From NCBI GenBank assembly GCA_964019335.1, contig OZ025709.1, positions 310,001 through 374,000 on the forward strand: a stretch of DNA of 64,000 nucleotides, in the 5' to 3' direction. Each line of letters opens with the position of its first letter. The stretch's first letter is position 1. The DNA is from Diplonema japonicum (Eukaryota > Protista > Euglenozoa: Diplonemea). A program made the position numbers and the translations under genes. Shown in pieces: positions 29,805 through 54,243 of the stretch. The notes beneath the pieces are model-generated. The model was not told where the DNA came from, searched no databases, and saw only the letters and a program-made list of their open reading frames with translations.

Positions 29805-31355
29805 TCACGACAACCGGACCCTAGTTTTGTACGCCGGTGTCCCGAAGGAGCCCTGCTTGTAAAATTTCGACACCTCCATCGTGGGTTTGCGCACGGGGGC
29901 CAGCTCGAGCTCCTCGGAGGCTTCGCGCTCGGTGCGTATCTCACGCGTGATCGGGGTGACGAGACGTATCTGTGTTTGTTTCATTGTCATTCCCTTTTCC
30001 TGTCATACCTTTGCAAGATCTTCCTTGTACTGCTCAGCGGGCGGGAGTGGGTGCTGGAAGGTGGGTTCGGAGAAGGCGTGGAGAAGGACGGCAGCTTGGT
30101 TCGCCTGTTAACGAATGAAAGAAAGAAAAACATTTGCACACACCGCAGAAAGTCCTTGTAGCTGAGTCGCGTGCACGCATGCTTGCTTGCATGTTCTTTC
30201 TACGTTGTGTTTCACGTAGTCGACATCAAGCCCGTACCTTTCAGACCCGAAGAAGAAGCACATAGAGGTGTCTAAGTTGTCTTCCTCTCTTAGTTCATGC
30301 CAGATTTCGTGTGATGGAGACGAGTCCTCGATGTCCTCTGTGAGGGTTGCAGAGGTCAAGGGAAGCATGTTATGCCGCCTTATCATCCTGTTGACGATGC
30401 CCCAAGGATCGTCTCCTTCCTCTTCCCTGAGGGTGTGAAAAGCAGGGTACCCACCAGCTGTTACATGTGCGGCCATCGATGCACTTAGAACCTGGTCGGA
30501 GTAAGGGTCTATGCAGTCGCTGAGAATGATCGCGTCGCACCCTAGAACGGTTGCAGTTCTGATGAGGTTTCCAAGATGTTGTGGTTCGTGGATGCCGAGG
30601 AGAACGGCGGCCCGCTTGATAGGTGGTGCTTCTTCTACCCATAGGTTTGATTTAGCTTGTTCATCAGGGATGAAGTACTCGGCTGCCATTCCGCTGTGAT
30701 CCTTCCCCGCTGCAACTGACAGACACATTTTGTCAGCGAAAACCGTCGGGGTTTTCTCGAGATCGATCCCGGGGGGAGCGTTCACGTTCGGTTCAAGTAG
30801 AAGCATTTCAGGGAAGTATCCGTTGCTGGCTAGATTCGATATGGCGGACCCGTCTCGGAGAACGAAGCGTTCGTTCTTCGATCTGTACTTTGGGTTTTGT
30901 CGAAGCTTTAGAAAGTGGTCGATCACTTTTGCCTTTCGGTTCGTGATCATCGTGGATGCAACGGGCATGGAATCTGTAAGGTTTTCCCAGTTTACGGCGG
31001 ACTGCGTTTTACCCTTTCGAACCAACGGCTCCGACGAAGCGTACCTGTGCGCATCGTCATTGTTTATTATCTCAATCTCCCTGTTTTTCAACTTTCTCCA
31101 TGCTTTTGCTTTGTCAATCTCGTGCCGATCTGTGACCCCTTCCCCCATCCCACCGTAATACTCATGCGGTTTCACTTTGTTCCCCACAGCTCCCAAAACC
31201 GACGTTCCAGACGTCCACCCTCTCCCTTTCCACGTATTGCCCCTGTCGATCTTCCCAACCTGCGTTTCTTGGCTTCTCTCTGCTTCTTTTGTTTTTTCTT
31301 TGTAATAAGAAGGACGACTTCCAACCCGATACACAATTTGGGTGCCTTTCAACAT
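29805..31355 (-). CDS. SpoU/TrmH-family RNA methyltransferase (RNMTL1/MRM-like); 2 introns (30105-30143, 29970-30008)
   Basis: IHEPQHLGNLIRTA, FFFGSERYGL; splicing restores motif 3 QGLSA|ANQAAVLLHAF and joins ORF 29805-29990. Confidence 0.82.
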
Positions 31356-31375
31356 TGTCTGACCCTGGAAAAAAA

Positions 31376-31449
31376 TATTCCCATCCGGGTTCGAACCGGA
31401 GACCTTCGCCGTGTTAAGGCGACGTCATAACCAACTAGACCATGGGAAC
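31376..31449 (-). tRNA. tRNA-Val(AAC), copy 1
   Basis: GTTCCCA...TCGCC-TT-AAC-AC-GGCGA...GGTTCGAACCC...TGGGAATA followed by T-run. Confidence 0.95.
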
Positions 31450-31461
31450 TCACGCCCCGGG

Positions 31462-33059
31462 TTTTTTTTTTTTTTTTTCAAAATACCAATGCAGGGCCGC
31501 CATGGAGAGCAACACCTGAGAAAAGGGAAAAAAAGGTGAAGGGAAACCATGGGGAAATAGGGAGGGCAATGGACCAGGCTTCTGCAAGCAGGAGGAGCCC
31601 TGGTCCCCCACCAACCCGTGCTCTGCTTTGGGACAGCCGAAGAGGGCTGAATTACATTATTCCCTCAGTCAAGTGAGAGAAAAACGGGGGCCTACCTTCC
31701 AGCTGGATGTCCTTCTTTGGCTGGAACCTCCGGCGGAAAGCCCCCCAGGGAGGTATTGCTCCTATTGAGCGAATCATTGGTGAGTGTGAAAATAAAAAAA
31801 AGGGGAAATGGGAAACAGTGAGAGGAAGGTGAAGGAAGGGAAAGGAAAGTGGGAAACACAACATTCCATTTAACACACACACACGGGGCGATCCCTTAGC
31901 GCAGCACGGGGGCCGCGGGACCGGCGTCAAGAGAGACCGGAGGAGGAGGCGGCACGTTTGAAGGTGCAGTGACGTCTGTAGACGCCAGGGATGATGGCGA
32001 GGTGAACAGTCCGGAGCGTGACCAGGCGAGCAGGCCAGACTCAACAATGAGGTCGTAGATCTGGGTCACGCGTCTCGACAGGGAGAAGGCTAGGGAGGGA
32101 GTACCAGCAGGAGTGTCGATCGCCCCCCTCCCGATCACAGGGCACCCACCGACAACATGCTCCCTGGACATCGGTGCTGCGTGGCAGGCTGGGCACCGGA
32201 GCACACCCTTGTGCTTCCTGTTCGGGCCAGCAGTCTGCAGGAAGCCGAAGAAGAGAGCCGAGTGACCAATCCGCAGCCGCGAGATGACCGTTTCAGCTTG
32301 TCTGGGGAAGCCAAGGGGGAAGTGCGCAGACCGAAGCTCGGTCGCCACCGCGTAGTTGTGGGCGAGGGATGTTATGAGCTCCGCGGACCTCCGCACCACC
32401 CACCGTCGCACCAGGGCCCTCACTGATCGGTAGTCAAGGGAGGGCCTGTCCTGCTTCCGCTTCGTTCCCTCCCCGGCCAGAGCGTCAGCCTTCTCGTTCC
32501 CGTCCACCCCACAGTGGGAGGGCACAAACTGGAGGACCACCGGTGTCCCCTGCGTGCGCGCCGCGGACACCAGCCGGCTCCACGTCTGGTGGTCGAGCTT
32601 CTCCCTCTGTCGCGTTGGGCCAGCTCGCAGCTGCTCGACGAGGGAGAGGGAGTCGGTGCAGATCGACAGCGGGGACTTCGCCAGCGAAGGGTGTGTTTTT
32701 CGGAGGGTAGCCACCATATCCAGCGCCGTTTTCACAGCCATGCCCTCTGCCCGAAAAGATGAACAGAAGTCGTTGACGCCATGGCACACAGACACAGGGG
32801 TCAGGGGGGGAGGCAGCTGCAGATAAACCCCAGAGCCACCTTTCGCCTTCTGTCCGACCTGTACAACCGAGCCATCCGTGTAGGCATGGATGCCCGGGGG
32901 GAGAGCCGCAAGAGCAGCCTCGGCCGCCTTCCGCCTGTCCGCGTCTGGCGACGATCGCGTGACCCCGCCGGGGAGGTCAGTCCTGAAGTCGACCATGCCT
33001 GTCTGCCACGGGGCCGCCAGGGGCGTAGCCGACAGGTACTCGAAGTGCACCTTTGGTTC
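31462..33059 (-). mobile_element. 5'-truncated non-LTR retrotransposon, family A copy 1 (RNase H + CCHC + 3'UTR + poly(A))
   Basis: Near-identical to 33256-34875; T17 tail at 31462-31478; 11-bp TSD CACGCCCCGGG at 31451-31461 and 33060-33070. Confidence 0.93.
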
Positions 33060-33176
33060 CACGCCCCGGGCAGCCGGGTAAATGGCGGATCATTGTGTGA
33101 ATATTGCGATTGTAAGAAGATTGCTAATAACTCACACTGAGCAACAAAATAACCACGTGATGCACATGTACAAAAA

Positions 33177-33250
33177 TATTCCCATCCGGGTTCGAACCGG
33201 AGACCTTCGCCGTGTTAAGGCGACGTCATAACCAACTAGACCATGGGAAC
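33177..33250 (-). tRNA. tRNA-Val(AAC), copy 2
   Basis: Identical body to copy 1; different downstream flank. Confidence 0.95.
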
Positions 33251-33710
33251 TCACGTTTTTTTTTTTTTTTTTTTTTTTTTTTTCAAAATACCAATGCAGG
33301 GCCGCCATGGAGAGCAACACCTGAGAAAAGGGGAAAAAAAGGTGAAGGGAAACCATGGGGAAATAGGGAGGGCAATGGACCAGGCTTCTGCAAGCAGGAG
33401 GAGCCCTGGTCCCCCACCAACCCGTGCTCTGCTTTGGGACAGCCGAAGAGGGCTGAATTACATTATTCCCTCAGTCAAGTGAGAGAAAAACGGGGGCCTA
33501 CCTTCCAGCTGGATGTCCTTCTTTGGCTGGAACCTCCGGCGGAAAGCCCCCCAGGGAGGTATTGCTCCTATTGAGCGAATCATTGGTGAGTGTGAAAATA
33601 AAATAAAAAGGGGAAATGGGAAACAGTGAGAGGAAGGTGAAGGAAGGGAAAGGAAGGGAAAGGAAAGTGGAAAACACAACATTTCACTTTACACACACGC
33701 GGGCGATCCC

Positions 33711-36700
33711 TTAGCGCAGCACGGGGGCCGCGGGACCGGCGTCAAGAGAGACCGGAGGAGGGGGCGGCACGTTCGAAGGTGCAGTGACGTCTGTAGACGC
33801 CAGGGATGATGGCGAGGTGAACAGTCCGGAGCGTGACCAGGCGAGCAGGCCAGACTCAACAATGAGGTCGTAGATCTGGGTCACGCGTCTCGACAGGGAG
33901 AACGCTAGGGAGGGAGTACCAGCAGGAGTGTCGATCGCCCCCCTCCCGATCACAGGGCACCCACCGACAACATGCTCCCTGGACATCGGTGCTGCGTGGC
34001 AGGCTGGGCACCGGAGCACACCCTTGTGCTTCCTGTTCGGGCCAGCAGTCTGCAGGAAGCCGAAGAAGAGAGCCGAGTGACCAATCCGCAGCCGCGAGAT
34101 GACCGTTTCAGCTTGTCTGGGGAAGCCAAGGGGGAAGTGCGCAGACCGAAGCTCGGTCGCCACCGCGTGGTTGTGGGCGAGGGATGTTATGAGCTCCGCG
34201 GACCTCCGCACCACCCACCGTCGCACCAGGGCCCTCACTGATCGGTAGTCAAGGGAGGGCCTGTCCTGCTTCCGCTTCGTTCCCTCCCCGGCCAGAGCGT
34301 CAGCCTTCTCGTTCCCGTCCACCCCACAGTGGGAGGGCACAAACTGGAGGACCACCGGTGTCCCCTGCGTGCGCGCCGCGGACACCAGCCGGCTCCACGT
34401 CTGGTGGTCGAGCTTCTCCCTCTGTCGCGTTGGGCCAGCTCGCAGCTGCTCGACGAGGGAGAGGGAGTCGGTGCAGATCGACAGCGGGGACTTCGCCAGC
34501 GAAGGGTGTGTTTTTCGGAGGGTGGCCACCATATCCAGTGCCGTTTTCACAGCCATGCCCTCTGCCCGAAAGGATGAACAGAAGTCGTTGACGCCATGGC
34601 ACACAGACACAGGGGTCAGGGGGGGAGGCAGCTGCAGATAAACCCCAGAGCCACCTTTCGCCTTCTGTCCGACCTGTACAACCGAGCCATCCGTGTAGGC
34701 ATGGATGCCCGGGGGGAGAGCCGCAAGAGCAGCCTCGGCCGCCTTCCGCCTGTCCGCGTCTGGCGACGATCGCGTGACCCCGCCGGGGAGGTCAGTCCTG
34801 AAGTCGACCATGCCTGTCTGCCACGGGGCCGCCAGGGGCGTAGCCGACAGGTACTCGAAGTGCACCTTTGGTTCCAACCCGCATCGACGCAGTGCTTGGT
34901 AGCCAGAGCGCAGCCACCCACACCCCAGCCTGTTCGCCTGCTTCAGCTTGACCGTCTCCCTGTGAACCGGGGAAGACTGCCAGCAGAAGGCCTTCGCCGT
35001 CATCGTCGCCGCAGCACCCTCCGCCATTCTTTCGAGGGGAAGCAGTCCTGCCTCAGCTAGGAGCTTGTACCCTCCGGAGCCACTCCAGCAGCCCGTGATC
35101 AGCACCGCCGCCTCCTGGTGAAGCCCAGCCAGGTCCTTCCTCCCGACATCATCGAGCCTGCTGTAGTAGACCCCCATGCAGTAGCGCAGCAGCGGGAGGA
35201 TGTACGTAACGTAGAGAGACCGCAGAGTGTCCCTCTTGCTGCCCCAGGACGTGCCGGACAAGAGCTTCAGCACCCTCAGCCTTTTGCTGGCCCGCCGTAG
35301 GATGTCCTGTGCGTGTTCACCGAACGTGAGCCCAGAGTCCACCGTAACCCCAAGGTACCTCGCGTGTTCAGATAGAGGCAGGGGACGGGCCGCAACGTAA
35401 TCCACGTCGGGCCGTCGCACGGCTGCATGCATGTCCCGCACGCAGCGGATCCGCACACCACCCGCCTCCACAACCTGAAGGCCCGCCAGCTCCTGGTCCC
35501 CGGAGATCGTGCCATCGGCGTTCACCCCCAGGCCGAAGAGTGGGTTCTGGAAGGCACCTGGCTGAAGGGGGACTCGTGACGAAGTGAAGTAGACCCCGAG
35601 ACGTTTCTGGGGGGGGACGCAGACTGCCTGCGTCTTGGACGTGCTCAGCAGCATGTCACGCTCCCTGCACCAGTCCTCAACCGCATCCACCACTGCCTGC
35701 GCCTTCCGCTCCAGCCCAGCCACGTCCCCTTGTCCAGAGGAGATCACAACCGCCACGTCGTCGGCGTAGAGCACCGAGACATCCGCCAGTCCCTCCAGTC
35801 TCCTGGCGAGTTCGTCGACGTAGATGGTGTACAGGATGGGACCCAAGACAGAGCCCTGGGGGACACCCCGTCGCACCTTCGTCGTCGACCCCCTCGACCG
35901 TCCAATCGTGACCGCAGCAGTACGGCCGCATAGAAAGGACCGCGTCCACTCCACGAAGGGTTCGGGGAGACCCTTCCCTCGCATCTTGTCCAGCAGGGCA
36001 CCATGGGGCACCAGGTCGAAGGCAGAAGAGAAGTCGAACAGCAGAGCGGCCGAGAGACGTCGATCGTCTTTGTTCCTCGACATGCACTCAGTGAGGGTTG
36101 CCACCTGCTCCTCCGTGGAGCGGCCGCGTCTGAAACCAGCCTGGCTGTCGTGGAGTCCCTCGACTCCCGTCCCGTCCGCGTCAAGAAGAAACGTGAGCCT
36201 CTCCTCGATCATCCTCTCCAGCAGCTTGCAGAGGCAGCTGGTCAGGCAGATCGGCCGGTAGGAAGCCAAGAGAGTCGCATCTTTTCCAGGTTTCGGTACC
36301 GGGACGATCACTCCCTTCTTCCAGGCACCGGGGACGACACCCATCAGCCAGGAGCGATTGAGGAGTAGAAGGAGGACACCGAGGGAGTCCGAGTTCAGGT
36401 GTAGGAGCATCTCCGAGAAGATTCCGTCTTCCCCGGCCGCGCTGCGCGTCTTCATCCTTCTCAGGCCGCGGGTGAGGTCGTCCACGGTGAACGCTTGACA
36501 CCCGAGTCTGCTTGCAGAAGGAGCGGCGTCCTTCGAGTTCCCGTCACCACGCCTGCCGTAGAGCTTAGCGAAGTGCGCCCCCAGCCGGTCGGCCTTCGCC
36601 TTGTCCGACACAAATCTTCCCTCGAGTACAGGAAGGTGTGTCTTTCGGTGCCTGCCGTCCAGCTTCTTCACCGCTCTGAACGCAGCCCCGAGGTCCTTGC

Positions 36701-37862
36701 TCCGGCTGAGGTCGGCCGCCATCCTTCCCCATGCCTCACGCTTCGTCTCGTCAAGGAGTCGGTTGACTTCCTTCACCTTCGCCCTGTACTCCTCCACCAC
36801 CACGTCCGCCTCTTGAAGCAGGAGTTCGCGCAGGGTGTTCCGCTCTTCGAAGGCGTCCTCGAGCTCAGCAGTCCACCAGGGGGTCGGGCCACGTCGCATC
36901 CCACAGAGGGGAATGTGGTCGTTCGCCGCAGTCAAAAGGGCTTGTGTAAACCCCTTCGTGACAGAGTCAATCGGAGCCGCCGTGTCAACACCAGCAAGCA
37001 GGCGGGCAACAGCAGCAGTGTAGTCATCCCATCTGGCTTTTTTGAAATTCCAGGTGGGGAAGGGGCGCTCCGAACGGTAGACGTCCTCAAGAGGCAGGTG
37101 AAAGGATACGGGACTATGATCGGAGCCCCACGTGCCCAGCGTCTTCGGCTCAAGCTTCGCGCAGCGCCCCACAACCAGGTCCAGAACGTGTCGTGACGAG
37201 TCCCTCGTCGGTTCGTTGCGGTCGTTGTAGACGGTGTACCCGTGGGTGTCCAGCCAGTCCCTGACCACGTTCCCCCTCTCGTTCGGCGTCGTCACCGTGG
37301 CGTCCCAGGAGCTGTGGTGAGCATTGAAGTCACCCGCTATGACTGTGTTCTTCCCCATGGGAAGGCTGCCAGGCCGCAGGTACTCAGGGTCCCTCGTGCC
37401 TCTGCTCGCGCTTACCGGTGTAAGGTAAACGTTGGAGAGAGTGATCGGCTCACGCTTCTCGCAGGAGATCCTCACATCCAGTCTCTCAGTGACACAGTCC
37501 CCAGCCGGGAGTACGTGCGGAACCTCCTCCGAGGCAAGATCGTCGCGGACATACGTGACAATACCACCACCCCTCGTCGCAGTGCCGTCAGTCACCGGTG
37601 TCAACCGATCCCTCCTGTATGACCTGTACCCAGGCAGGTGTGGCGTGTCGTGCCCTTCCCTCAGGTGCGTCTCCTGTATCATGATGATGTCCAGCGACAA
37701 GAAGTCAGCATGGCGAGATACGACGGTCCATTTTGCAACGAGGCCGTTGCAGTTCCACGAGACAACCTTGAGACCCTTAGGCGACGGGGGCGGCAGCTTC
37801 TTGGGTGGGCCAGGGTTTGTTTCGACCAGCCCAAGCAGCCCCAACAGGTCCCTGACGGACAT
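33711..37862 (-). CDS. Family A ORF2: 2A-like peptide, AP endonuclease, reverse transcriptase, RNase H, CCHC finger
   Basis: SWNCNG/IQET/GDFNAHH/GSDH (APE); YRPICL, DFSSAFD, GVPQGSVLGP, YADD, YLGV (RT); YTDGS, AEG, TDS, FVPSHCGVDGNEKAD (RNase H); CPAC-x8-H-x4-C. Confidence 0.95.
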   Translation of the reverse strand: MSVRDLLGLLGLVETNPGPPKKLPPPSPKGLKVVSWNCNGLVAKWTVVSRHADFLSLDIIMIQETHLREGHDTPHLPGYRSYRRDRLTPVTDGTATRGGGIVTYVRDDLASEEVPHVLPAGDCVTERLDVRISCEKREPITLSNVYLTPVSASRGTRDPEYLRPGSLPMGKNTVIAGDFNAHHSSWDATVTTPNERGNVVRDWLDTHGYTVYNDRNEPTRDSSRHVLDLVVGRCAKLEPKTLGTWGSDHSPVSFHLPLEDVYRSERPFPTWNFKKARWDDYTAAVARLLAGVDTAAPIDSVTKGFTQALLTAANDHIPLCGMRRGPTPWWTAELEDAFEERNTLRELLLQEADVVVEEYRAKVKEVNRLLDETKREAWGRMAADLSRSKDLGAAFRAVKKLDGRHRKTHLPVLEGRFVSDKAKADRLGAHFAKLYGRRGDGNSKDAAPSASRLGCQAFTVDDLTRGLRRMKTRSAAGEDGIFSEMLLHLNSDSLGVLLLLLNRSWLMGVVPGAWKKGVIVPVPKPGKDATLLASYRPICLTSCLCKLLERMIEERLTFLLDADGTGVEGLHDSQAGFRRGRSTEEQVATLTECMSRNKDDRRLSAALLFDFSSAFDLVPHGALLDKMRGKGLPEPFVEWTRSFLCGRTAAVTIGRSRGSTTKVRRGVPQGSVLGPILYTIYVDELARRLEGLADVSVLYADDVAVVISSGQGDVAGLERKAQAVVDAVEDWCRERDMLLSTSKTQAVCVPPQKRLGVYFTSSRVPLQPGAFQNPLFGLGVNADGTISGDQELAGLQVVEAGGVRIRCVRDMHAAVRRPDVDYVAARPLPLSEHARYLGVTVDSGLTFGEHAQDILRRASKRLRVLKLLSGTSWGSKRDTLRSLYVTYILPLLRYCMGVYYSRLDDVGRKDLAGLHQEAAVLITGCWSGSGGYKLLAEAGLLPLERMAEGAAATMTAKAFCWQSSPVHRETVKLKQANRLGCGWLRSGYQALRRCGLEPKVHFEYLSATPLAAPWQTGMVDFRTDLPGGVTRSSPDADRRKAAEAALAALPPGIHAYTDGSVVQVGQKAKGGSGVYLQLPPPLTPVSVCHGVNDFCSSFRAEGMAVKTALDMVATLRKTHPSLAKSPLSICTDSLSLVEQLRAGPTRQREKLDHQTWSRLVSAARTQGTPVVLQFVPSHCGVDGNEKADALAGEGTKRKQDRPSLDYRSVRALVRRWVVRRSAELITSLAHNHAVATELRSAHFPLGFPRQAETVISRLRIGHSALFFGFLQTAGPNRKHKGVLRCPACHAAPMSREHVVGGCPVIGRGAIDTPAGTPSLAFSLSRRVTQIYDLIVESGLLAWSRSGLFTSPSSLASTDVTAPSNVPPPPPVSLDAGPAAPVLR

Positions 37863-38003
37863 CCTCCCGAGTAGGGTGGGGATCAGTGCAGAAAAGTCGG
37901 TGAAGAAACAGAGAGGTAGGAGTCTCCTGGGGAGGATGCGAGGGAGACTAGGAGAGGGAGCATGGTCGTAGATCTGCTGCTCCCCCTGTTCTGCGGGGCC
38001 CCT

Positions 38004-40850
38004 TCAATTGGATGGACCCATGGAGGCAGAGCGCCCCTTGACCCCATTGGTGAAGAGATCTTTGGTCTCCGCGAACGACCTGGCCCGCCCCCTCGTACCC
38101 AGGTTCGTCACCGCAGCCTCAGAGGTCGTAGCGAGAGGAGGAGCCCCCTTCTTCCCCTTCCCCTTCCCTTTCCAGACACTGTCGTGTGTCGTCGTCGCCC
38201 CCGGTGTAGGGTCCCGCGGCACTGCCGTTCCCGTCGTCAGCGTGGCCGCCTGCGGCAGGAGGAGGCGGAGCGTCGTCCGCAGATCGGAGATCATCTCCTG
38301 CTGAGAGTCGATCGTCCTCTGCAGCCCGACGATCGACTCCTTCAGCGTGGCGACGAGCTCAGTGAGAGCGGCGACCTCAGGCGACCCGGAAGGGACTCCC
38401 TCCTTGTTTCCCGCAGACACGTTGCGGGGCGGTGTAGGGGACGTCACAGTGTCGAGCTGGGGGGGAGCCACCGAGCTCGGTATGGACGCCCACGGGCTGG
38501 TGGGAGGAAGCCCAGTTGCTTTCACCGCAGGGCCAGTCTCCGAGGGTGTCGACGCCGATACAGGTGCCGGGTCAGGTACAGGTGTAGTAGGCGCAGGTGC
38601 AGGCACATGAGAAGATGTGGGTGCCGGGGTCGAGGACGTTGCAAGCGCAGGTGCAGATGCAGGTGTCGTCCTGTTGATGAGAGGGGGCGGCTTGACGGTC
38701 GGGTGGTCGTCCGCATCACGGAGGCAGACAAGGCGCCCCCCAAGGAGCCACGTCCTGGACTTCGGGGGCGGGCTGTCGACGACGATGAAGAACACGAGTT
38801 GCCTCGTGCCCTGGAACATCGTCTGCGTGCGTCGCAGGACGGAGGATGGTTTCCAACCGATGTGGTCCATCACTTCGTCGAAGGCCGCCCTGGTGATGGA
38901 CGGCGGGGCTCCGGTGAGCAAAAACTTGCGCTTCGTACGCAGTTTTGCGAGGGTTTCCCGGAGCCGCTGTTCCGTCTCCGGTAGGCACCGCACAGTCCAT
39001 CCCTTACGGTGCGCCACCCCGAGAGACAACCCACCCAGCGTCCCCGCAATCCGATAGGCATCCGCCCTCCCTTCCGCCACGATGGGTACATAAGCGTACC
39101 CCCCGCGTCTCTCCGTCGTCCGCATTAAGCACCCGTCCCCGGACCGGCGCAGGACGGCGTGGACGTGTGCTGCTTGCAGGCGCAGTCCCACCTCGTGGGT
39201 CCAGTGCCTCGCCCGCGGTTCCTCCTCACCGAACTTCCTTGGGCGGAAGACCGCACGATCCTCCACCACCGCGCCCTGAGCCTTGGCGAGCTCCAGGACC
39301 CTGGCCTTCGCCTCCTTCAGGCTGTCTGCACTGACACAGACGTAGACGACCTCCGATCCGCTGTTGAAGGTGGAAGGCGGGGTGTAGGTGGGGGGGTCCA
39401 GCCCGAACGTGGAGACGTGGACCCTCCTGTTCACTGCGCGCGACCCAGAGACCATGACAATCTCGCTGGGGGTGGTGACACCGGGGACCTCTGTCATAAG
39501 GACAAAGGTGATGGATGCCGTAGGTAACGCGGAGCACACGACCCCCATTCCGGAGGGATCGTCGAGCGCAATGACAGCGCGGGATGTTTCCGTCGGGGGG
39601 GACACGTTGGTGTAGATCGGGGCGTCCCATGTGTCTGGCACCAGGTCCCATCGCGGGGTTGTGGAAGGGGCAGGGGCAGGGTCGTCCTCCATCTCCTCAG
39701 GGCCAGAGCTGGTGTCAGAGTCTGAGCTGAGGAGGAGCGTGCCTTGGTCTGTTGACGCGTTGGCGGAAGCGTTCGCGACTGCTTCGTCCTCGACCTTCTG
39801 GGCATCTGCCTTCTTGGCGGCCGCCAACCTCAAAGCTTCCTCCTTTTTGGCAGCGGCTGCGGCGGCTTCCTTTTCGGCGGCGGCGGTGGCTGCGACCTTC
39901 TTCTTCTCCTCGGCGGCGGCGGCTGCGGCTGCGGTCTCCTTCTCGGCGGCGGCGGCTGCAGCTTGCTTCCTGGCGGCGTCGGCTGCGGCCTTCCTCTCGG
40001 CGGCGGCGGCGGCAGCGGCTTTCTTCTCGGCGGCGGCCTTCTCCTCGGCGGCGGCGGCCTTCTCCTCGGCGGCGGCGGCGGCTGCGGCTTTCTTCTTCTC
40101 GGCTGCAGCGGCTGCGGCTGTAGCCTTCTTCTCCTCGGCTGCTTTCATCTCGGCCGCAGCACGCGCAGCCTCCTTCTCCTCTGCCGCAAGTCGTGCAGTA
40201 GACCGCTCGCGCAGAGCCTTCTCCTCAGCCTCGACTGCTCTGCGAGCAGCCTCCACACCAGCCACGCGAGCAGCTTCCGTCTCGGCTGCCATTTTGACAA
40301 CCGCAGCATCAGCCACCTCCTGCGCAGCCTTCATCTTAGCAGCTATTTCTGCAGCTACCACGTCGGCCGACTCGCGTGCAGCTTCCAAATCAGCAGCGAT
40401 TCCCGCGAGTTCGACGTCGGCCGCAGTGCGTGCGGCTTCGAGGGGGTGTGTGGCGTCAGCTATGTGTGCGGCTTCGGCGGCAGCGTCAGCGCGCGCGGCT
40501 CTGGCGGCCTTCCTCCTAGCTTTTTTGCTGGAGGTCGGGGTGGCGACGCTGGCGTCAGGCGAAACCGGCCTTTTGACGGAGCCGGTCGGGGTGGAGGCGA
40601 CAGGTGTCGCTGGGCCGGCTGTAGCGGCGGCGGCGTCGGGCGTGAGGAGGTCAATTACGGTGACCACCCCCGTCATCTTCTCCCGGTGCTCCGGCGTCAG
40701 GAGCTGCCCCAGCTCCCCGGCTGCTCCCGCGCTGCGGAGCATCCTCTCCACCCGCCGCTCCTCCCTGGCCTTGGACTGCGCCAGCTGCGTGCTGGCCCCG
40801 TTCCCTTCCGGCTTTGCCTTCTCCTTGTGCTTGTCTTTCTTCTTGCCCAT
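38004..40850 (-). CDS. Family A ORF1 (Ala/Glu/Lys helical repeat, central conserved domain with RRM-like segment, Pro/Thr linker, C-terminal coiled coil)
   Basis: 948-aa intact ORF upstream of ORF2; central region homologous to ORF 45057-46466. Confidence 0.85.
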   Translation of the reverse strand: MGKKKDKHKEKAKPEGNGASTQLAQSKAREERRVERMLRSAGAAGELGQLLTPEHREKMTGVVTVIDLLTPDAAAATAGPATPVASTPTGSVKRPVSPDASVATPTSSKKARRKAARAARADAAAEAAHIADATHPLEAARTAADVELAGIAADLEAARESADVVAAEIAAKMKAAQEVADAAVVKMAAETEAARVAGVEAARRAVEAEEKALRERSTARLAAEEKEAARAAAEMKAAEEKKATAAAAAAEKKKAAAAAAAEEKAAAAEEKAAAEKKAAAAAAAERKAAADAARKQAAAAAAEKETAAAAAAAEEKKKVAATAAAEKEAAAAAAKKEEALRLAAAKKADAQKVEDEAVANASANASTDQGTLLLSSDSDTSSGPEEMEDDPAPAPSTTPRWDLVPDTWDAPIYTNVSPPTETSRAVIALDDPSGMGVVCSALPTASITFVLMTEVPGVTTPSEIVMVSGSRAVNRRVHVSTFGLDPPTYTPPSTFNSGSEVVYVCVSADSLKEAKARVLELAKAQGAVVEDRAVFRPRKFGEEEPRARHWTHEVGLRLQAAHVHAVLRRSGDGCLMRTTERRGGYAYVPIVAEGRADAYRIAGTLGGLSLGVAHRKGWTVRCLPETEQRLRETLAKLRTKRKFLLTGAPPSITRAAFDEVMDHIGWKPSSVLRRTQTMFQGTRQLVFFIVVDSPPPKSRTWLLGGRLVCLRDADDHPTVKPPPLINRTTPASAPALATSSTPAPTSSHVPAPAPTTPVPDPAPVSASTPSETGPAVKATGLPPTSPWASIPSSVAPPQLDTVTSPTPPRNVSAGNKEGVPSGSPEVAALTELVATLKESIVGLQRTIDSQQEMISDLRTTLRLLLPQAATLTTGTAVPRDPTPGATTTHDSVWKGKGKGKKGAPPLATTSEAAVTNLGTRGRARSFAETKDLFTNGVKGRSASMGPSN

Positions 40851-41196
40851 TTTTCTTTTCTTTTCTTTTCTTTCCTTTCTTTTCTTTCACGTTTCTTTTC
40901 TTTTCTTTCCTTTCTTTTCTTTCACGTTTTTTTTTGCAATAATAACCACTGGGGGGAAACTGGGGGTGGGGGGAGGGGTGGGCCAGTCTTTTGTCTGGAG
41001 TAACCGAGAGGGCCACCACGGGGCTGAACCTTCCCTTCGGTGCTCCGTTCCCCCTTCCTGGGACAGCCGACCTGGCTGATTACATTCGGGGCGGTCCCCT
41101 CGAGGCTGAACGCAGGGGCGTTCTCTTGCTGCGCCCTGCGCCCTCCCGGCCTTCCCTGTGGCTGCCTCCCGGGAGGTTGTTTCTTGGCCCATTTGC

Positions 41197-41247
<51 letters not shown>

Positions 41248-41295
41248 GGGGGGACAAAGGGGTAGGGGGGGGGGGGGTCTATAATGGGCTCACGA

Positions 41296-44200
41296 TCACC
41301 CTTGTGCTGCGTCGGCCGGGGGGAAGATCCCACACTCAGACCATGATAAGAGCCCGGAGGCCTCGATGAAGGCGCAGACCTCGGCGGAGTGCTTGGAAAG
41401 CAGCGCGCGGAGCGGCAGCCCAGTGTCGTAGAAGGACTTAGCTGTGGGAGCCAGAGAATGACAGCCCCTCAGCAGGTGATCAGCGTCGAGCGGTGATTGA
41501 ACGTTGCAGGCGGGGCAGGTGAGGTGATGACTCCCCTCAGCCCTCAGGGGTCCCTTGAGCTGGAGGTACCCCCTCATCAAAGGCGTGTGTCCGGTCCGGA
41601 GCCGAATGATCAGGACCTCATCCCTCCTACTGAGTGGTGGGAGAGAGAGACATTCGCCACCGGTGACGAGGCGGTGGTGGCCGGGGGAGTCGCTGTTATA
41701 TCTCGCACGCGACCTTCCTCTCAGCCACGCTTTTATGGCCGCCTTGCTGGAGCGGTAGCTAACCCCGCAAGGCGACTTCGACAGCCCGTCCCTGGCCGCT
41801 CCGTCGGCGAGCTCGTTCCCCGTCACACCGCAGTGGGAGGGGATGTACCAGAAGTGCACATCACCAGAGCGTTTGGCCCTGAGCCAGGAAGCGGCATCCC
41901 AGATCCGTCTGTCCGTGGACTCCCTCTGCTGTCCGGGGCCTCCAGCGAGCCTCCGCAGCATCGTCTGTGAGTCGGTCAGCAGGTAGAGAGGGCGGCCCCT
42001 CAGGTTCACGACCGTTTTGTACACCTCCGCAGCCTCCTTCAACCCCATCAGGATAGCGGTGCCCTCGGCGCACATGGGTGTGGAGACCATGCCGGCCCCG
42101 TGAGAGGTGGTAAGGGTGAGGTCCATGTCGGGGACTCTGAGGGCAACCCCAGCCCCCCCTCTCCCCCTTATCACCGAGCCGTCCGTGTACACTACCAGAG
42201 CGCCGCTTGGGATCTCGTCCAGCTTTTCCGCAGCCGCTGCCGCCCTCACATCGTCGGGGAGTGTCCTCCTGGTGTCGGTGGCGTAGGGATCGACGTGGAT
42301 GCCTTCCGCCCAGGGGGGGGCTCTCGTATCAGGCCCTAGCGGTAGGGAAGCAACCGCACTCAGCCCAGAACTCCTCGTCGCCTTCAGCGCTCCCAAGGCC
42401 CATCCTGCGGTAGCTGCACCCCTGACCACCCTGTTCACCGGGGTTCCCACCCACCTCAGTGCCCTCTGCAGTAGAATGGCAGAAGCAGGTACAAGGACCT
42501 GAGTGATGCTGCGGAACTGCCCCAGGACGAGCCGGAGAGGAGCCGCAGTATGCGAATTCGTTTGTCGTATCTCTCGATGATGTCGCGGGCATGGGCACCG
42601 AAAGACAAGTCAGCGTCAAGGATGACCCCTAGATACTTGGCCCTATCACGCCTCGCGACGGGGACGGCCGTGGAGAATTCATACACCAGCCCTTTGGAGA
42701 CGAGTGCAGAGACGTCGCGTCGTGTCGTGGCCGTGCGGTTAACGGACAGGAGCCTCCTCCCGATCAGGTGAGTAGGTCCCCCGGCGATGAGTCGGCCCTT
42801 GAGCTCCAGCGGCTGGAATTCGAAGCCCGGATGCGTCGCCCCGGTCGAGGGGAAGTAGACGTGGAAGTCGTACGGTTCGCATTTGGGGGTGGGGACGTAC
42901 AGCGTCTTCTCCCTGCTCAACTGCATCCCCCATCGTGTACACCAGTCTTCGACTGCACCCACTACCGCCGTGGCCCTGGCCTCGAGCTCAGTCCTTGTTG
43001 TGGCAGAGACTACTACCGCGACGTCGTCCGCGTAGATCGTGGAGAGCCCAGCCAGACCCTCAAGTTCCCTCGCTAGGTCGTCCACGAAGATGGTGAACAG
43101 CACTGGACCGAGTACAGAACCTTGAGGCACGCCACTCTTGATTTTGTAAGGGGTCCCCTTGACACCCTCCACGACTACCCTCGCTGTTCTGGACGTTAGG
43201 AAGGAGGAAACCCACCTGGTGTAGGCCGTAGGGAAGCGCTTCTGAGACATCTTCTGAATGAGTGCCTCGTGGTTGACCCTGTCGAACGCCTTTGAGAAGT
43301 CAAAGAGTATGGTGAGGCATGCCTCCTTAACTTCGGCGTTCCTTTTTATCGTCACATGCTGCACGATGGCGGCAACCTGCTCCTCGGTGGACCTCCCTTT
43401 CCTGAAGCCAGCCTGGGCGGGGTGAAGTCCCTCTACCATCGTTGTCGGGGAGTCAAGTAGATACGTCACGCGGGCCTCGACCATCCTTTCCATGAGCTTG
43501 CCGAGGCAGCTCGTCAGGCTGATGGGGCGGTAGGACTCAATCTTCGTGGGGTCTTTGCCCGGCTTCGGGATCGGGACGACTAGTGCCAGTTTCCACGTGT
43601 CCGGAACTTGCCCGCTCGCCCAGGAGAGATTGAACAGCTGTAGAACGATTCTCAGGGATTCCCTACCCAGACGCATCAGCATCACGTTGAAGATTCCATC
43701 GTCGCCTGCAGCACTCTTCGTTCTCGTCCTGAGCAATTGTCTCAGCAGTTCGTCCATCGTGAAGTAGCCCGTTCCGCCCTCGTAGGGTTCCTGCGTCTGT
43801 CCTGTTGTGTCGAGACCAGGGACAGTGTCGTCTCCGCAGATCGTCTCGTAGTAGCGTCCGAGACGATCGGCCCTAGCCTTGTTGCCTGTGAGAAGAGCGT
43901 CGCCGTGTTGAAGGGGGGGGCATCGGTGGCCTCCATGACCTGCCGTCGAGCTCCTTGACTGCCTTGAATGCCGCAGGCAAGTTCTTGGAGGAGCTGAACT
44001 TGGAGCAGAGGCTCCTCCATGACTTCTCTTTGGATGCCTTCACCGTCTCGTTGACTGCATTGTTGAGCCCAGCGAGCCCTGCGTGATCTTCGGATTCCCC
44101 CCTGAGGATGGCGTCTCTGAGGGTGTCCCTTTCTTCAAAGGTCGTGTCCAGTTCGCTGTTCCACCATGGCTTCCTCTCGGTGAAACACCCGTGCCGAGGT

Positions 44201-45054
44201 ATGTGCCTTGTTGCGGCTTCGCTCAGGGCTTCTTGGATCCTCTTGGCGAAGGTCGTGACCTGTTTGCATCCGTCCAGCCCTCGAAGCCTCCCGTCTACAA
44301 AGTTCTGGAACGCTTCCCAGTCTGCCTTCCGGTAGTTGTACAACTCAGGCGTGTATGCTCTCCTAGTCGGCCTCAGTAGGGGGACCTCGAATTGAAGGGG
44401 TGTGTGGTCAGAGCCCCAGGAACCCAAGTGGCAAGGCGTCCTGGGTTCCCATTTATCCTTGCTGAGGATCAGGTCAAGGACAGACCTGCTCCCTCCTCTC
44501 GTCCACGTGTGGCGGTCCGGTCTGTTCCATAGCACGAAGTTCTTGTTCTCCATCCATTCCCATACGGTCCAGCCCCTGTCGTTAGCTTTCGCAGCATGGT
44601 CCCAGCTTGAGTGGTGGGCGTTGAAGTCACCGCAGGCGATGTAGTCGTCTTCTTGGGGAAGGTCGGCCAGCTGGAGGGTCTGACCGCCTCTGGGCGGCAG
44701 GTAGAAGTTGCAGATGACCGCTTTGGAACTGTCACACCTGATTTCGACATCGAGCCTTTCCACGTCTTCGGAGACAACACAAACCACCTCGCGAGCCTGA
44801 AGGTCCTTCTTGACCAGGGTGACAAGTCCACCTCCCCTCCCACTGCCAGCCTGGGCGGTTCGGTCCTTCCTGAAGACTTGGTACCCCAGAGCCTGGAATT
44901 CGTCAGCTTGCACCAGCTTCGTTTCCTGAATGGCGATGACGTCCAGTTCCCTCTTTCTCGCTTGGTGAAGCAGCGTCGTCGTTTTGGCACCCCTTATCGA
45001 GTTACAGTTCCACGTGACAACTCGGAGGGGGCGAAGGGACCCCACAGGGCCCAT
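41296..45054 (-). pseudogene. Family B ORF2 (APE-RT-RNase H-CCHC), disrupted
   Basis: TWNCNS, GDFNAHH, GVPQGSVLGP, YADD, YTDGS, YIPSHCGVTGNELAD, CPAC..H..C. One +1 frameshift in the G8 run 43913-43920 and a frameshifting deletion of roughly 65 codons near 42487 relative to family A. Confidence 0.88.
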
Positions 45055-45056
45055 GG

Positions 45057-46466
45057 CTAACACCTTTTGGGGACAGCGACCAGGCGCCGTTTCTTCTTCC
45101 CCGAGGGCGTCTTTGGTGAGCCTGGGGGCTTAGCGCTTGTCTGTTTGGACTCCGACGGGCCCCCCTTCAGCAGTATCGCGAGAACCTGCCTCACGACCTC
45201 CTCCACGAACTCCGCACTGAATTCGGAGGTCGGGTTCTCCCGCTTGGTCCCGGAGGGGGCGCTGCCCTTTGCTTTGCTGCCCGTGGTCTTCTTCTTTCCC
45301 TTCGGGTCGGGTGTGGAGGGTGCGTTCCTGACCACCTCGGCAGCTGTCCTTCCTTTGGTAGGGGGAGTGGTCTGGTGGGCCTCCTGCTGTTCCTTCTTCT
45401 TCTCGGGATGTGCCTTCTCCTTCTTCGGGAGGGTCCGGACAAAGGCCTCCGGGAAGCTGCCTTTAGCGTGGCACCTCAGGAGCCTGTCCCCGTATTGGAA
45501 GATCGGGAACGGCGGGGGCTCTGAGGCGACAACCTGCAGGAACATGACCTTTTTGCCATCAACCCTGGCGTACCTCCTGCCCACCACCCTGGCATTCCAG
45601 CCCATGTCCTTCGGGATCACGTCCGCTTCCTCCTGGTAGACGTGGCCGGGGACACCCTCCAAGACGTACTTCTGGGACATCGTCACATCGATGTCGCATG
45701 AAGCGAGTGCCTCTTGGAGTTCGGCTGTGTCACCGGAGGCGCACCTGATCGCCCACCCTCCCTTGACCGACATGACACCTAGGGCGGGTCCACCAGCCTT
45801 GAGCGCCATCTGGAACGCCTCGCCGATGGTGGATGCCGGAACAGGTACCGCCTCGGTCGGAAGCGTGTGCCTTGGGACCTCGATCAGGTAGCCATCCCCA
45901 GACTTGCGGAGGAGTGCGTGGAGGCTGGTCGTCCGCACCCTCATGCCGACCTTGTGCGAGAGGGTGTTGGGGCCCCTTCTGCTCAGAGGTACAGGGGCGT
46001 CTCGGCTGGGGAACACGGCTGTTTCCTTCAGGCCTGTTTCGACCTTCCTCCCGTGAGCGAGAGCCGTCTTCCTCGCCTCGTCCATTGAGTCAGCCTTGAC
46101 CCTCATGTAGAGGACGGCCTCGGTGGCTGCTGTCGCTTGTACCGCCTTTGGGGCTGCATACTTCGGGGGGGAGGAACCGTTGCCTGTCAGTTCGACAAGG
46201 TGCAGGGTTTTGATACCTTGCTTTGTGAACAAGGTGGCGGACGACGACCCGGCGAAGGCCTTCATGGAGAGCACGGTCCAAGACCCGTGTGCGGCGGTGT
46301 GGTATTTGAGGAAGACCTCGGGATTCGTCGTGAGGATGACGCCTCGGGTTTTGCCCTCCGTCTTCGACGGGTGGACCACTTCTCCGTCCCAGTGCTCAGG
46401 AACCAGCGTGATTCGCTTCTCCCAGGAGGCTGTAGCCTGGGGTACCTCGTCAGTGCTCGTAGGCAC
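45057..46466 (-). CDS. Family B ORF1, N-terminally incomplete
   Basis: LVPEHWD, HKVGMRVRTTSLHALLRKSGDG, KYVLEGVP align with A ORF1 LVPDTWD, HEVGLRLQAAHVHAVLRRSGDG, KFLLTGAP; no ATG start. Confidence 0.75.
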   Translation of the reverse strand: MPTSTDEVPQATASWEKRITLVPEHWDGEVVHPSKTEGKTRGVILTTNPEVFLKYHTAAHGSWTVLSMKAFAGSSSATLFTKQGIKTLHLVELTGNGSSPPKYAAPKAVQATAATEAVLYMRVKADSMDEARKTALAHGRKVETGLKETAVFPSRDAPVPLSRRGPNTLSHKVGMRVRTTSLHALLRKSGDGYLIEVPRHTLPTEAVPVPASTIGEAFQMALKAGGPALGVMSVKGGWAIRCASGDTAELQEALASCDIDVTMSQKYVLEGVPGHVYQEEADVIPKDMGWNARVVGRRYARVDGKKVMFLQVVASEPPPFPIFQYGDRLLRCHAKGSFPEAFVRTLPKKEKAHPEKKKEQQEAHQTTPPTKGRTAAEVVRNAPSTPDPKGKKKTTGSKAKGSAPSGTKRENPTSEFSAEFVEEVVRQVLAILLKGGPSESKQTSAKPPGSPKTPSGKKKRRLVAVPKRC

Positions 46467-46562
46467 ACCGGCACGGAGGCATCCCCTTCAGCTGGTTTTG
46501 TTGGGCTGTGGAGCCTTTGGAAAATAAAAATGTAAGGAAAACATAACCAGGCTAACCCGGGC

Positions 46563-46726
46563 TTTTTTTTTTTTTTTTTTTTTTTTCAAAATACCAATAG
46601 GTGCCATGGGGGAGCAACACCTGGGAAGGGGAAAGGTGAAGGGAAGCATGGAAATATTACAGGGAGGGCGAAGACCAGTTCTTCTGCAATCAGATGGAGC
46701 TGTGGACTCCGCCAACCCGTGCCCTA
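46563..46726 (-). mobile_element. Short 3'-terminal fragment of a diverged family-A-like element (C)
   Basis: T24 + CAAAATACCAAT...GGAGCAACACCTG...CCAACCCGTGC, similar to the A 3' end; flanked by CCCGGGC (46556-46562) and CACGTCCCGGGC (46727-46738). Confidence 0.85.
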
Positions 46727-47013
46727 CACGTCCCGGGCAGCCGCGTAACTGGCGAATGTCGATGCACGTACGGTGGTAGCAATAAATAAATACTAAAAAG
46801 GAAAAAAAAAAACCAACTCCAATCCAATCAAACTTAAAGTTACCTTCTTTTTTTTTTTTTTTTTTTCCACTTCCTTTTCGACTTGCTAAGGCCGTACCCA
46901 CTAGGTGGGTTGGAAGTGTCTCGAGACGCTCACTCGGTTGCCCGAGTACTCATGACCGTGCTGGTGTTCTCTACCCACAAGCTTTGCTGGTTGTTTGGCA
47001 TTTTTTTTCTAAG

Positions 47014-47049
<36 letters not shown>

Positions 47050-47065
47050 CTAGATCCCTATTAAA

Positions 47066-54181: not shown

Positions 54182-54243
54182 AGGAGGGAGAGGGGTACGT
54201 GGAGGAGGGGGATGTGTGTCCTTTTTTTTTCTTTTTTTTTTCT

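What the first reader, a model, noticed from the sequence alone, without database searches (positions are those of the whole stretch)
37806..38006. ORF1 and ORF2 share one frame: single TGA, 47 open codons, then a 2A-like StopGo motif
Seen: ORF1's TGA (38004-38006) is in frame with the ORF2 ATG (37862) and the 141 nt between have no stop (RGPAEQGEQQIYDH...LIPTLLGR). The TGA is followed by the palindrome GGGGCCCC. ORF2 then reads MSVRDLLGLLGLVETNPGP directly before the endonuclease. Known: D(V/I)ExNPG-P 2A motifs precede the APE domain in L1Tc/ingi and other LINEs. Here the Asp is replaced by Leu. Inference: double recoding, where leaky readthrough sets ORF2 dosage and ribosome skipping frees the enzyme from ORF1. 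Re-initiation at the ATG is the alternative.
Basis: partly seen in the sequence, partly recalled or inferred. Interest (0 to 1): 0.8.

Follow-up and report, generated by a model that had tools for sequence, protein, structure and literature searches.

The report
LINE with in-frame stop plus 2A
A jumping gene (LINE retrotransposon) of a marine flagellate has its two genes in one reading frame, split by a single UGA stop and followed by a conserved, non-standard 2A-like peptide, so its copying enzyme is likely made by ribosomes that occasionally read through the stop and would then be released as a separate protein by ribosome skipping; neither step has been tested.

Summary
An intact APE–RT–RNase H LINE has ORF1 (948 aa), one TGA, 47 open codons, an ATG and a 2A-like 19-mer in one frame. 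Near-identical proteins are labelled Diplonema japonicum. Frame plus open linker alone is about a 1-in-9 chance. The palindrome lies one base after the TGA, and the RNA fold is unremarkable.

The TGA is not private to this copy. Two transcript-derived ORF1 variants end at it, and 6 of 6 laid runs that cover it show no change. All are over 99% identical, so its age is unknown.

A sister family (~82% identical) keeps the motif, including Leu for Asp: 6 synonymous and 0 replacement changes in 10 codons. It also keeps 6 of 10 residues just upstream of the ATG, in register (p≈0.1, suggestive). I could not see its codon at the stop position.

Best reading: leaky readthrough followed by StopGo (0.35 jointly; readthrough alone ~0.5). 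Rivals are re-initiation, a young nonsense stop in a one-ORF ancestor, and trans-splicing. Each part has precedent; my searches found no paper combining them. The scan reported this before on another piece of this genome (e1-10630281).

The parts
38007..40850 (-). ORF1, 948 aa: Ala/Lys-rich repeat region, central core 28% identical to ORF1 of neighbouring element B, Pro/Thr-rich tail; no Pfam hit, no CCHC knuckle seen
   Evidence: transcript-derived variants P0167/P0168 end at the same residue; fold low-confidence, pLDDT 39
38004..38006 (-). Single in-frame TGA, context AAT-TGA-AGG
   Evidence: unchanged in 6 of 6 laid runs that cover it; TGA ends 4 of 10 host ORFs checked, so it is a normal stop here
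37995..38002 (.). GGGGCCCC palindrome, one base after the stop; no evidence of function
37863..38003 (-). 47-codon open linker, 61% pyrimidine, hydrophobic 3' half; the last 10 codons line up without gaps with the sister family (6 of 10 residues identical)
37953..37987 (-). Predicted 10-bp hairpin starting 17 nt after the stop; the region folds no better than shuffles
37883..37963 (-). Out-of-frame (+1) ATG opening a 26-codon mini-ORF that stops 20 nt before the ORF2 ATG; the first AUG after the ORF1 stop
37806..37862 (-). First in-frame ATG and 2A-like 19-mer MSVRDLLGLLGLVETNPG/P; predicted skip between Gly (37811-37809) and Pro (37808-37806); Leu at the canonical Asp12 position
   Evidence: 11 of 19 positions identical to F2A as printed (compared by eye); sister family 6 synonymous and 0 replacement changes in G11-P20
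37116..37763 (-). APE-type endonuclease domain of ORF2
   Evidence: Pfam PF03372 E 2e-13, PF14529 E 6e-13
35592..36299 (-). Reverse transcriptase domain (YADD)
   Evidence: Pfam PF00078 E 7e-35; nearest solved relatives are L1 ORF2p and R2
34278..34703 (-). RNase H domain, followed by a C-x2-C-x8-H-x4-C motif; ORF2 ends TAA at 33713-33711
   Evidence: Pfam PF00075 E 8e-08
33256..33710 (-). 3' UTR and poly(A) tail, ending 5 nt upstream of tRNA-Val (33250-33177)
31462..33061 (-). 5'-truncated second copy of the family (98% identical), poly(A), 11-bp target-site duplication, 12 nt upstream of tRNA-Val (31449-31376): indicates recent retrotransposition

Best explanation
This is an intact, recently mobile LINE whose ORF1 and ORF2 share one frame split by a single UGA; most ribosomes would stop there to make ORF1p, a minority likely read through it, and the conserved 2A-like peptide is then predicted to release the enzyme by ribosome skipping. 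The minority product would be ORF1p plus one inserted residue, the 47-residue linker and 18 residues of 2A, and a free endonuclease-RT-RNase H protein starting at Pro. The stop would set the ORF1:ORF2 ratio, and the linker would supply the upstream exit-tunnel context that 2A peptides need. Shown: the frame, the stop shared across the young family, purifying selection on the motif including Leu12, and recent mobility. Suggestive only: protein-level conservation of the linker's 3' end. Inferred, untested: readthrough (about 0.5) and skipping (about 0.7 given the conservation).
For: One stop in 2,392 codons. Transcript-derived ORF1 variants, differing from the window copy in 6-7 alignment columns, end at the same residue. 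The TGA is unchanged in 6 of 6 runs covering it, and the linker is unchanged in the 3 contigs that span it.

Sister family, ~82% identical: G11-P20 has 4 identical, 6 synonymous and 0 replacement codons, against 21/10/8 in a 39-codon endonuclease piece. The 10 codons before the ATG are in register with 1 identical, 5 synonymous and 4 replacement codons, the same synonymous:replacement ratio as the endonuclease piece.

The first AUG after the stop is out of frame, which hinders simple scanning to 37862. Full FMDV 2A activity needs more than 30 residues of native sequence (PMC12846837), and an ATG start would give only 18 before the skip site. Natural p12 = V/T/C/N/G variants are active. Related diplonemid ORF2 proteins carry 2A-like motifs at the same place. 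In-frame-stop LINEs are described in Paramecium.
Against: Frame plus open linker is about 0.11 by chance. Linker-end conservation is not significant over all 10 visible codons (p 0.09-0.11; 0.024 for the last 8, chosen after seeing the data). It rests on 30 letters, and the +1 frame also keeps 5 of 10 positions, including its stop.

The linker's codon usage is inconclusive: 15% of stop-free shuffles score as high, and 3' UTR windows score as high or higher. No stimulatory structure beyond chance. UGA-AGG is not a type I-III context. The sister's codon at the stop was not seen, so the stop may be young.

The ATG falls exactly at position 1 of a minimal 19-mer and has A at -3. No D12 substitution passed the threshold in P2A or F2A, D12A abolishes F2A, and only 139 of 1,969 single-deviation natural peptides scored highly active in human cells. 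Leu at p12 occurs in 1 of 54 motifs among the 179 fetched proteins, namely this element.
Confidence: 0.35

Rival explanations
1. Termination and re-initiation: ribosomes stop at the UGA and restart at ATG 37862, directly or after the 26-codon mini-ORF, or at a non-AUG codon in the linker. The 2A-like peptide then trims or attenuates ORF2 as in N-terminal 2As of other LINEs.
For: Re-initiation is the mechanism shown for SART1 and proposed for LINE-1 across a 63-nt spacer (PMC5972666 passages). The ATG starts a 19-mer exactly and has A at -3. Neighbouring element B has a TAG-CC-ATG stop-start junction. The mini-ORF stops 20 nt before the ATG, and its TGA is also present in the sister's 30 visible letters. 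A non-AUG start would also explain coding conservation upstream of the ATG; AUG-independence of human L1 ORF2 is recalled, as the paper was not held.
Against: It does not explain the shared frame and open linker (about 0.11 by chance) nor, for the ATG version, the in-register synonymous changes upstream of the ATG. An out-of-frame AUG comes first. Luke et al. argue that classical re-initiation after a long ORF1 is improbable. Whether the sister keeps the ATG could not be read: 2 unlisted differences lie in 37855-37864.
Confidence: 0.22
2. The TGA is a young nonsense change in what was a single ORF1-linker-2A-ORF2 frame. Linker and motif conservation are inherited from that ancestor. The family still spreads through basal leakage, re-initiation at the ATG, or help from the sister family.
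For: All copies seen with the TGA are over 99% identical. ORF1-2A-ORF2 in one ORF is reported in a pseudoscorpion element (bioRxiv 2026.06.17.732966 passage). It explains frame, open linker, conservation and the lack of a recognisable readthrough signal equally well.
Against: The stop-bearing family is transcribed, has an intact 1,383-codon ORF2 and has made a recent copy with a target-site duplication. No fused protein of 760-2,421 aa was among the 13 hits. Longer proteins were not searched there, and the sister's proteins were found in none.
Confidence: 0.2
3. Readthrough occurs but the Leu12 motif does not skip efficiently: the product is an ORF1p-ORF2p fusion, or the peptide only pauses ribosomes or lowers downstream protein.
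For: D12 contacts rRNA and D12A abolishes F2A. No D12 substitution passed in two saturation libraries. Many LINE 2A-like peptides are weak or inactive, or reduce protein abundance rather than skip.
Against: All 6 changed codons in G11-P20 are synonymous between families. L6, L7, G11, V13, E14, N16 and PGP are all canonical. Hydrophobic V12 is active in its natural context.
Confidence: 0.15
4. A spliced leader is trans-spliced onto an AG in the pyrimidine-rich linker, giving an ORF2-only mRNA that starts at ATG 37862; the shared frame is incidental.
For: Essentially all D. papillatum mRNAs carry a spliced leader (PMC10161547 passage). AGs at 37949, 37928 and 37925 follow 15-17 pyrimidines in 20 nt and lie downstream of the out-of-frame ATG, so 37862 would become the first AUG.
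Against: The AG just before the ATG is absent from the sister's 30 visible letters. Trypanosome L1Tc and ingi transcripts are unspliced (PMC1874656 passages). It does not explain the conservation upstream of the ATG.
Confidence: 0.06

Closest known systems
Paramecium tetraurelia non-LTR retrotransposons, Group 3 (PMC5405496; passages and two Table S3 rows seen)
   Same: ORF1 and an APE-RT ORF2 in one frame across an in-frame stop; the authors suggest readthrough from consensus sequences.
   Different: Ciliate clade; no RNase H listed in the rows seen; no 2A mentioned in the passages seen; ORF1 is 260-330 codons in those rows against 948 here.
L1Tc / ingi (Ingi clade) and other 2A-bearing APE LINEs (PMC3708506 abstract and sections 7, 14; PMC3894237 parts 1-2 of 3)
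   Same: 2A-like peptide in the N-terminal region of ORF2, upstream of the endonuclease; euglenozoan host.
   Different: Ingi-clade elements are described as lacking ORF1, and 2A correlates with its loss. Here a long ORF1 is present and in frame. The motif has Leu at p12. No HDV-like ribozyme match was found by Rfam.
CR1-26_BF, CR1-53_BF, CR1-1_LG (ORF1 plus 2A in ORF2; PMC3894237) and Cordylochernes ORF1p-2A-ORF2p proteins (bioRxiv 2026.06.17.732966, passage)
   Same: Both an ORF1 and a 2A-like peptide ahead of the ORF2 domains.
   Different: The passages seen describe no single in-frame stop with an open linker: the CR1 cases are two-ORF elements and the Cordylochernes cases are continuous proteins.
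Viral StopGo/2A peptides, class A (F2A, P2A) and rare p12 variants (PMC12846837 passages and section 14; bioRxiv 2026.09.24.754024 sections 24, 28)
   Same: D5-L6-L7, L9, G11, V13-E14-x-N16-P-G-P spacing; 11 of 19 residues identical to F2A.
   Different: Leu at p12 is outside the expanded core (D/G/C/N) and the listed rare variants (T, V); its activity is untested.
LINE-1 and SART1 ORF2 translation (PMC5972666 and PMC10275272, passages)
   Same: Bicistronic LINE RNA with low-level ORF2 output after the ORF1 stop.
   Different: These use termination/re-initiation (63-nt spacer; overlapping UAAUG), with no 2A described in the passages seen.

Membership tests
APE-type non-LTR retrotransposon (LINE) | ORF2 with APE endonuclease and RT | tested here: met
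   PF03372/PF14529 and PF00078 above curated cut-offs
APE-type non-LTR retrotransposon (LINE) | 3' poly(A), 5'-truncated copies, target-site duplication | tested here: met
Ingi clade (L1Tc/ingi) | APE-RT-RNase H domain order | tested here: met
   (feature recalled for the clade)
Ingi clade (L1Tc/ingi) | Single ORF, no ORF1 | tested here: not met
   948-aa ORF1 against PMC3894237
Ingi clade (L1Tc/ingi) | 5' Pr77 signature with HDV-like ribozyme | tested here: inconclusive
   No ribozyme family of this kind among 9 Rfam matches at E<=1 over 31300-47100; the Pr77 sequence itself was not compared
Ingi clade (L1Tc/ingi) | RT phylogeny groups with L1Tc/ingi | not tested
   No named L1Tc or ingi protein came back; no tree was built
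StopGo/2A peptide | Core (D/G/C/N)(V/I)ExNPGP | tested here: not met
   Leu at p12; the other seven positions fit. Filed as 2A-like, not as a canonical 2A
StopGo/2A peptide | Upstream hydrophobic cluster L6/L7 and G11 | tested here: met
StopGo/2A peptide | Amino-acid-level constraint on the motif | tested here: met
   6 synonymous and 0 replacement changes in 10 codons against the sister family; one comparison only
StopGo/2A peptide | Co-translational separation at Gly/Pro | not testable with these tools
   needs a reporter assay or proteomics
Programmed stop-codon readthrough | Single in-frame stop followed by an open frame | tested here: met
Programmed stop-codon readthrough | Stop conserved across diverged relatives | tested here: inconclusive
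   Shared by copies over 99% identical; sister codon not visible
Programmed stop-codon readthrough | Coding-type constraint between the stop and the next AUG | tested here: inconclusive
   10 of 47 codons compared, p about 0.1; codon usage uninformative
Programmed stop-codon readthrough | Known leaky context (types I-III) or 3' stimulatory structure | tested here: not met
   UGA-AGG; fold z about 0. The review notes UGAAGA/UGAAGU at some retroviral junctions, so the classes are not exhaustive
Programmed stop-codon readthrough | Ribosomes or peptides across the stop | not testable with these tools
   only assembled contigs of unrecorded library type were available

The most novel reading that the evidence does not exclude
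A retrotransposon uses two recoding events in series. UGA readthrough, by a signal outside the known context classes, rations the enzyme, and a Leu12 StopGo peptide, a core variant not among those reported active in the papers read, then releases it from ORF1p on diplonemid ribosomes.
Probability: 0.33. Interest if true: 0.7.

Novelty: new variant of a known kind. Interest (0 to 1): 0.5.

Why it matters
How LINEs make a little ORF2 protein from a two-gene RNA is described as an open question (PMC3894237), and the purpose of 2A peptides in LINEs is unsettled. An element with both a full ORF1 and an in-frame stop ahead of a conserved 2A-like peptide gives that peptide a clear job, separating the enzyme from ORF1p. 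It also makes the question testable with one 200-nt cassette. A working Leu at the Asp12 position would extend the StopGo core beyond the published variants and probe the exit tunnel of euglenozoan ribosomes. If the stop is young or ORF2 re-initiates, this is an ordinary two-ORF LINE with a degenerate 2A.

Tried and rejected
No whole genome is held, so copies could not be counted or aligned. No RNA holder was listed among 23 runs; 8 of the 23 were laid, all as contigs of unrecorded library type. No leader-like loose end or joint appeared in the linker in those 8 runs (12 of 13 loose ends shown). Contigs drop rare forms and I had no positive control, so this is not counted against trans-splicing.

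X10, X12, X14, X15, X16 and X17 held only low-depth pieces of the same family (depth 2-7, at most the same two synonymous differences), not diverged relatives; X14 and X16 do not reach the stop.

A metagenome scan gave 60 loci at 21-48% identity. None showed a 2A-like motif ahead of a long open frame on the match strand, so they give no background for the junction. Three protein searches and one profile search did not return the sister family's proteins.

Rejected: the palindrome or hairpin as a demonstrated signal; TGA as a sense codon in this host (4 of 10 host ORFs end in TGA); a recognisable SECIS or ribozyme (Rfam: only the two tRNAs above gathering score). Codon-usage scoring of the linker was uninformative.

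A 2A-like remnant in element B ranks 4th of 10,470 six-frame 19-mers of B and is not separable from chance. ORF1 fold (pLDDT 39) and Atlas hits (0.77 or less) were too weak to use, so no fold search was run. Look-ups of earlier findings by sequence or relatives returned nothing, so I cannot tell whether e1-10630281 concerns this family or the sister.
Full report
Observation. The feature lies on the minus strand of an element running from about 41,200 to a poly(A) at 33,284-33,256. Translating 40886-33711 gives one frame of 2,392 codons with one internal stop, TGA at 38006-38004. ORF1 is 948 aa from ATG 40850. After the TGA come 47 open codons, the ATG at 37862, the 19-mer MSVRDLLGLLGLVETNPGP, 13 more residues, and then endonuclease, RT and RNase H domains. 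The palindrome begins one base after the stop. Taken alone, the shared frame and open linker are weak evidence. Off-frame stop density gives about 0.35 for 47 open codons, shuffles give 0.31, and with 1 in 3 for the frame this is about 0.11.

Host and context. Proteins that differ from ORF2 by one residue and from ORF1 by 6-7 alignment columns are labelled Diplonema japonicum and come from one Trinity gene, so the family is transcribed. Host ORFs end in TAA (5 of 10), TGA (4) or TAG (1), so TGA is a normal stop. The element ends 5 nt upstream of a tRNA-Val. A 5'-truncated copy, 98% identical, with poly(A) and an 11-bp target-site duplication, lies 12 nt upstream of a second tRNA-Val. The family has therefore moved recently, but this second copy lacks the junction.

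Is the stop private to this copy? No. Both transcript-derived ORF1 variants end at the same residue. Of 23 listed runs I laid 8. Six cover the stop and none shows a change; in one of them (X17) the stop is only 18 letters from the contig end. The three contigs that span the whole linker (X1, X7, X10) show no change in it. The two deep ones have word depth 33 and 1,758; the rest are depth 2-7 and may be traces of the same DNA. All are over 99% identical to the window, so this shows the founder state of a young family, not long-term conservation.

A sister family. Runs X1 and X7 (same organism code, two studies) hold a second family that aligns at 37423-37601 (33 differences in 179) and 37744-37864 (20 in 121). 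Classing the listed differences, the ten codons G11-L12-V-E-T-N-P-G-P-P20 have 4 identical, 6 synonymous and 0 replacement codons, against 21, 10 and 8 in a 39-codon endonuclease piece. The motif is thus constrained as protein, and the Leu at the Asp position is shared by both families rather than being a lesion of one copy. The tool also printed 30 letters of the sister upstream of 37864. In the ORF frame they read PSLIPSLLER against SALIPTLLGR, without gaps: 1 identical, 5 synonymous and 4 replacement codons, assuming base 37863 is shared. Random placement of the same number of changes keeps 6 of 10 residues with p = 0.09-0.11, and p = 0.024 for the last 8 codons, chosen after the fact. The +1 frame keeps 5 of 10 positions including a TGA, and the third frame 3 of 10. 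This is suggestive, not decisive. The other 37 linker codons and the stop position of the sister were not visible, nor could I confirm its ATG.

Other tests of the linker. Codon usage favours frame 0 (-0.004 against -0.12 and -0.22) and exceeds all 123 stop-free off-frame windows. However, 15% of stop-free shuffles and some 3' UTR windows score as high, so I treat it as inconclusive. A 10-bp hairpin is predicted 17 nt after the stop, but four downstream folds have z between -0.33 and 0.39. UGA-AGG fits none of the three classical contexts, although the same review lists UGAAGA and UGAAGU at some retroviral junctions (PMC13517186, passages). The first AUG after the stop is out of frame (37963) and opens 26 codons ending 20 nt before the ORF2 ATG. 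Three AGs behind pyrimidine-rich stretches lie between the two AUGs.

The 2A-like peptide. It matches F2A, as printed, at 11 of 19 positions, including L6, L7 and G11, with Asp12 the only core departure. Related diplonemid ORF2 proteins carry GD(V/I)Hx(N/H)PGP at the same place: D. ambulator P0002 and P0017, and F. neradi P0019. Among 54 motifs in 52 of 179 fetched proteins, position 12 is D in 44, G in 5, N in 3, C in 1 and L in 1, this element. Against activity: D12 bonds to rRNA and D12A abolishes F2A (PMC12846837, passages); no D12 substitution reached threshold in P2A or F2A, and only 139 of 1,969 single-deviation natural peptides were highly active (bioRxiv 2026.09.24.754024, sections 24 and 28); LINE 2As range from highly active to inactive (PMC3708506, section 7). 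For activity: natural p12 = C, N, V (over 95%) and T (88.5%) work in their own context, and full activity can need over 30 residues. An ATG start would supply only 18 residues before the skip site; entry from upstream would supply the conserved stretch just ahead.

Mechanism. I commit to readthrough followed by StopGo (joint 0.35; readthrough about 0.5, skipping about 0.7). Rivals are re-initiation at the ATG or a non-AUG codon (0.22), a young nonsense stop in a former single ORF1-2A-ORF2 frame (0.2), readthrough without effective skipping (0.15), and spliced-leader addition in the linker (0.06). These odds are my judgement. The young-stop rival matters most, because it explains the frame and the conservation equally well. 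Only the sister's codon at the stop separates the two.

Comparison and novelty. In-frame-stop LINEs with proposed readthrough are published for Paramecium Group 3 (PMC5405496, passages and two Table S3 rows). 2A peptides ahead of LINE endonucleases are well known and usually go with loss of ORF1, with a few ORF1-plus-2A exceptions (PMC3708506 abstract and sections 7, 14; PMC3894237 parts 1-2 of 3). Continuous ORF1p-2A-ORF2p proteins are mentioned in a 2026 preprint (passages). LINE-1 and SART1 use re-initiation (passages). PMC12338488 (passages), PMC10161547 (passages) and PMC1874656 (passages) gave background. Seven searches (listings read, plus the papers named) found no description of a LINE combining an in-frame stop, an open linker and a 2A, nor of these diplonemid elements. 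The library lacks most subscription papers, and the preprint supplements were not seen. The element is an APE-type LINE. It is not filed in the Ingi clade (it has an ORF1; no tree was built), and the peptide is 2A-like, not canonical.

Earlier scan notes. The same arrangement was reported on another piece of this genome (e1-10630281), and in-frame-stop LINEs in other genomes. These are unchecked AI notes and are not counted as evidence. Verdict: real feature, new variant of a known kind, mechanism plausible but unproven; interest 0.5.

Noticed in passing
window 31376-46725 (-): Stack of retroelements upstream of tRNA-Val genes: a 165-bp 3' remnant (46563-46725, 79% to A's 3' end, poly(A)), element B, element A, tRNA-Val, then the truncated A copy 12 nt before a second, identical-length tRNA-Val. 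CCCGGG...CGTG flank pieces recur at the junctions, consistent with nested insertion 5-12 nt upstream of the tRNA.
   Followed up: partly
window 41270-46560 (-): Element B: a related LINE (ORF1 core 28%, endonuclease about 44% identical to A) whose ORF2 is broken into three frames. Its junction is TAG-CC-ATG (45059-45052), with no NPGP motif.
   Followed up: partly
window 45076-45132 (-): In B's ORF2 frame, upstream of its ATG and overlapping ORF1's end, LGEEETAPG lines up with A's LGLVETNPG (7 of 19 identical). This is a possible decayed 2A or a by-product of ORF1's GKKKRR; it ranks 4th of 10,470 windows and is not significant.
   Followed up: yes
window 38458-38700: In run X7, single-contig depth rises from 1,758 over the linker to over 21,000 upstream of 38458 within ORF1. 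This could reflect abundant ORF1-only derivatives or transcripts, but library type is unrecorded and depth is a poor measure.
   Followed up: no
P0002 / P0014 (D. ambulator): The N-terminus holds a partial endonuclease duplication and three 2A-like PGP motifs with His at position 14; the first in-frame Met is only 15 residues before the Pro.
   Followed up: no
window 39850-40140 (-): ORF1 contains an Ala/Lys/Glu repeat tract whose length differs between copies (948 against 951-952 aa).
   Followed up: no
window 2844-62830 (-): The long host ORFs examined (calpain-like, CLC channel, DnaJ, SpoU, kinase, JmjC, RRM) all lie on the minus strand, with tRNA genes interspersed.
   Followed up: no
window 49407-49987 and 54238-55310: Two short dispersed repeats (137 bp inverted at 97%; about 400 bp direct at 84%) outside the element stack.
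   Followed up: no
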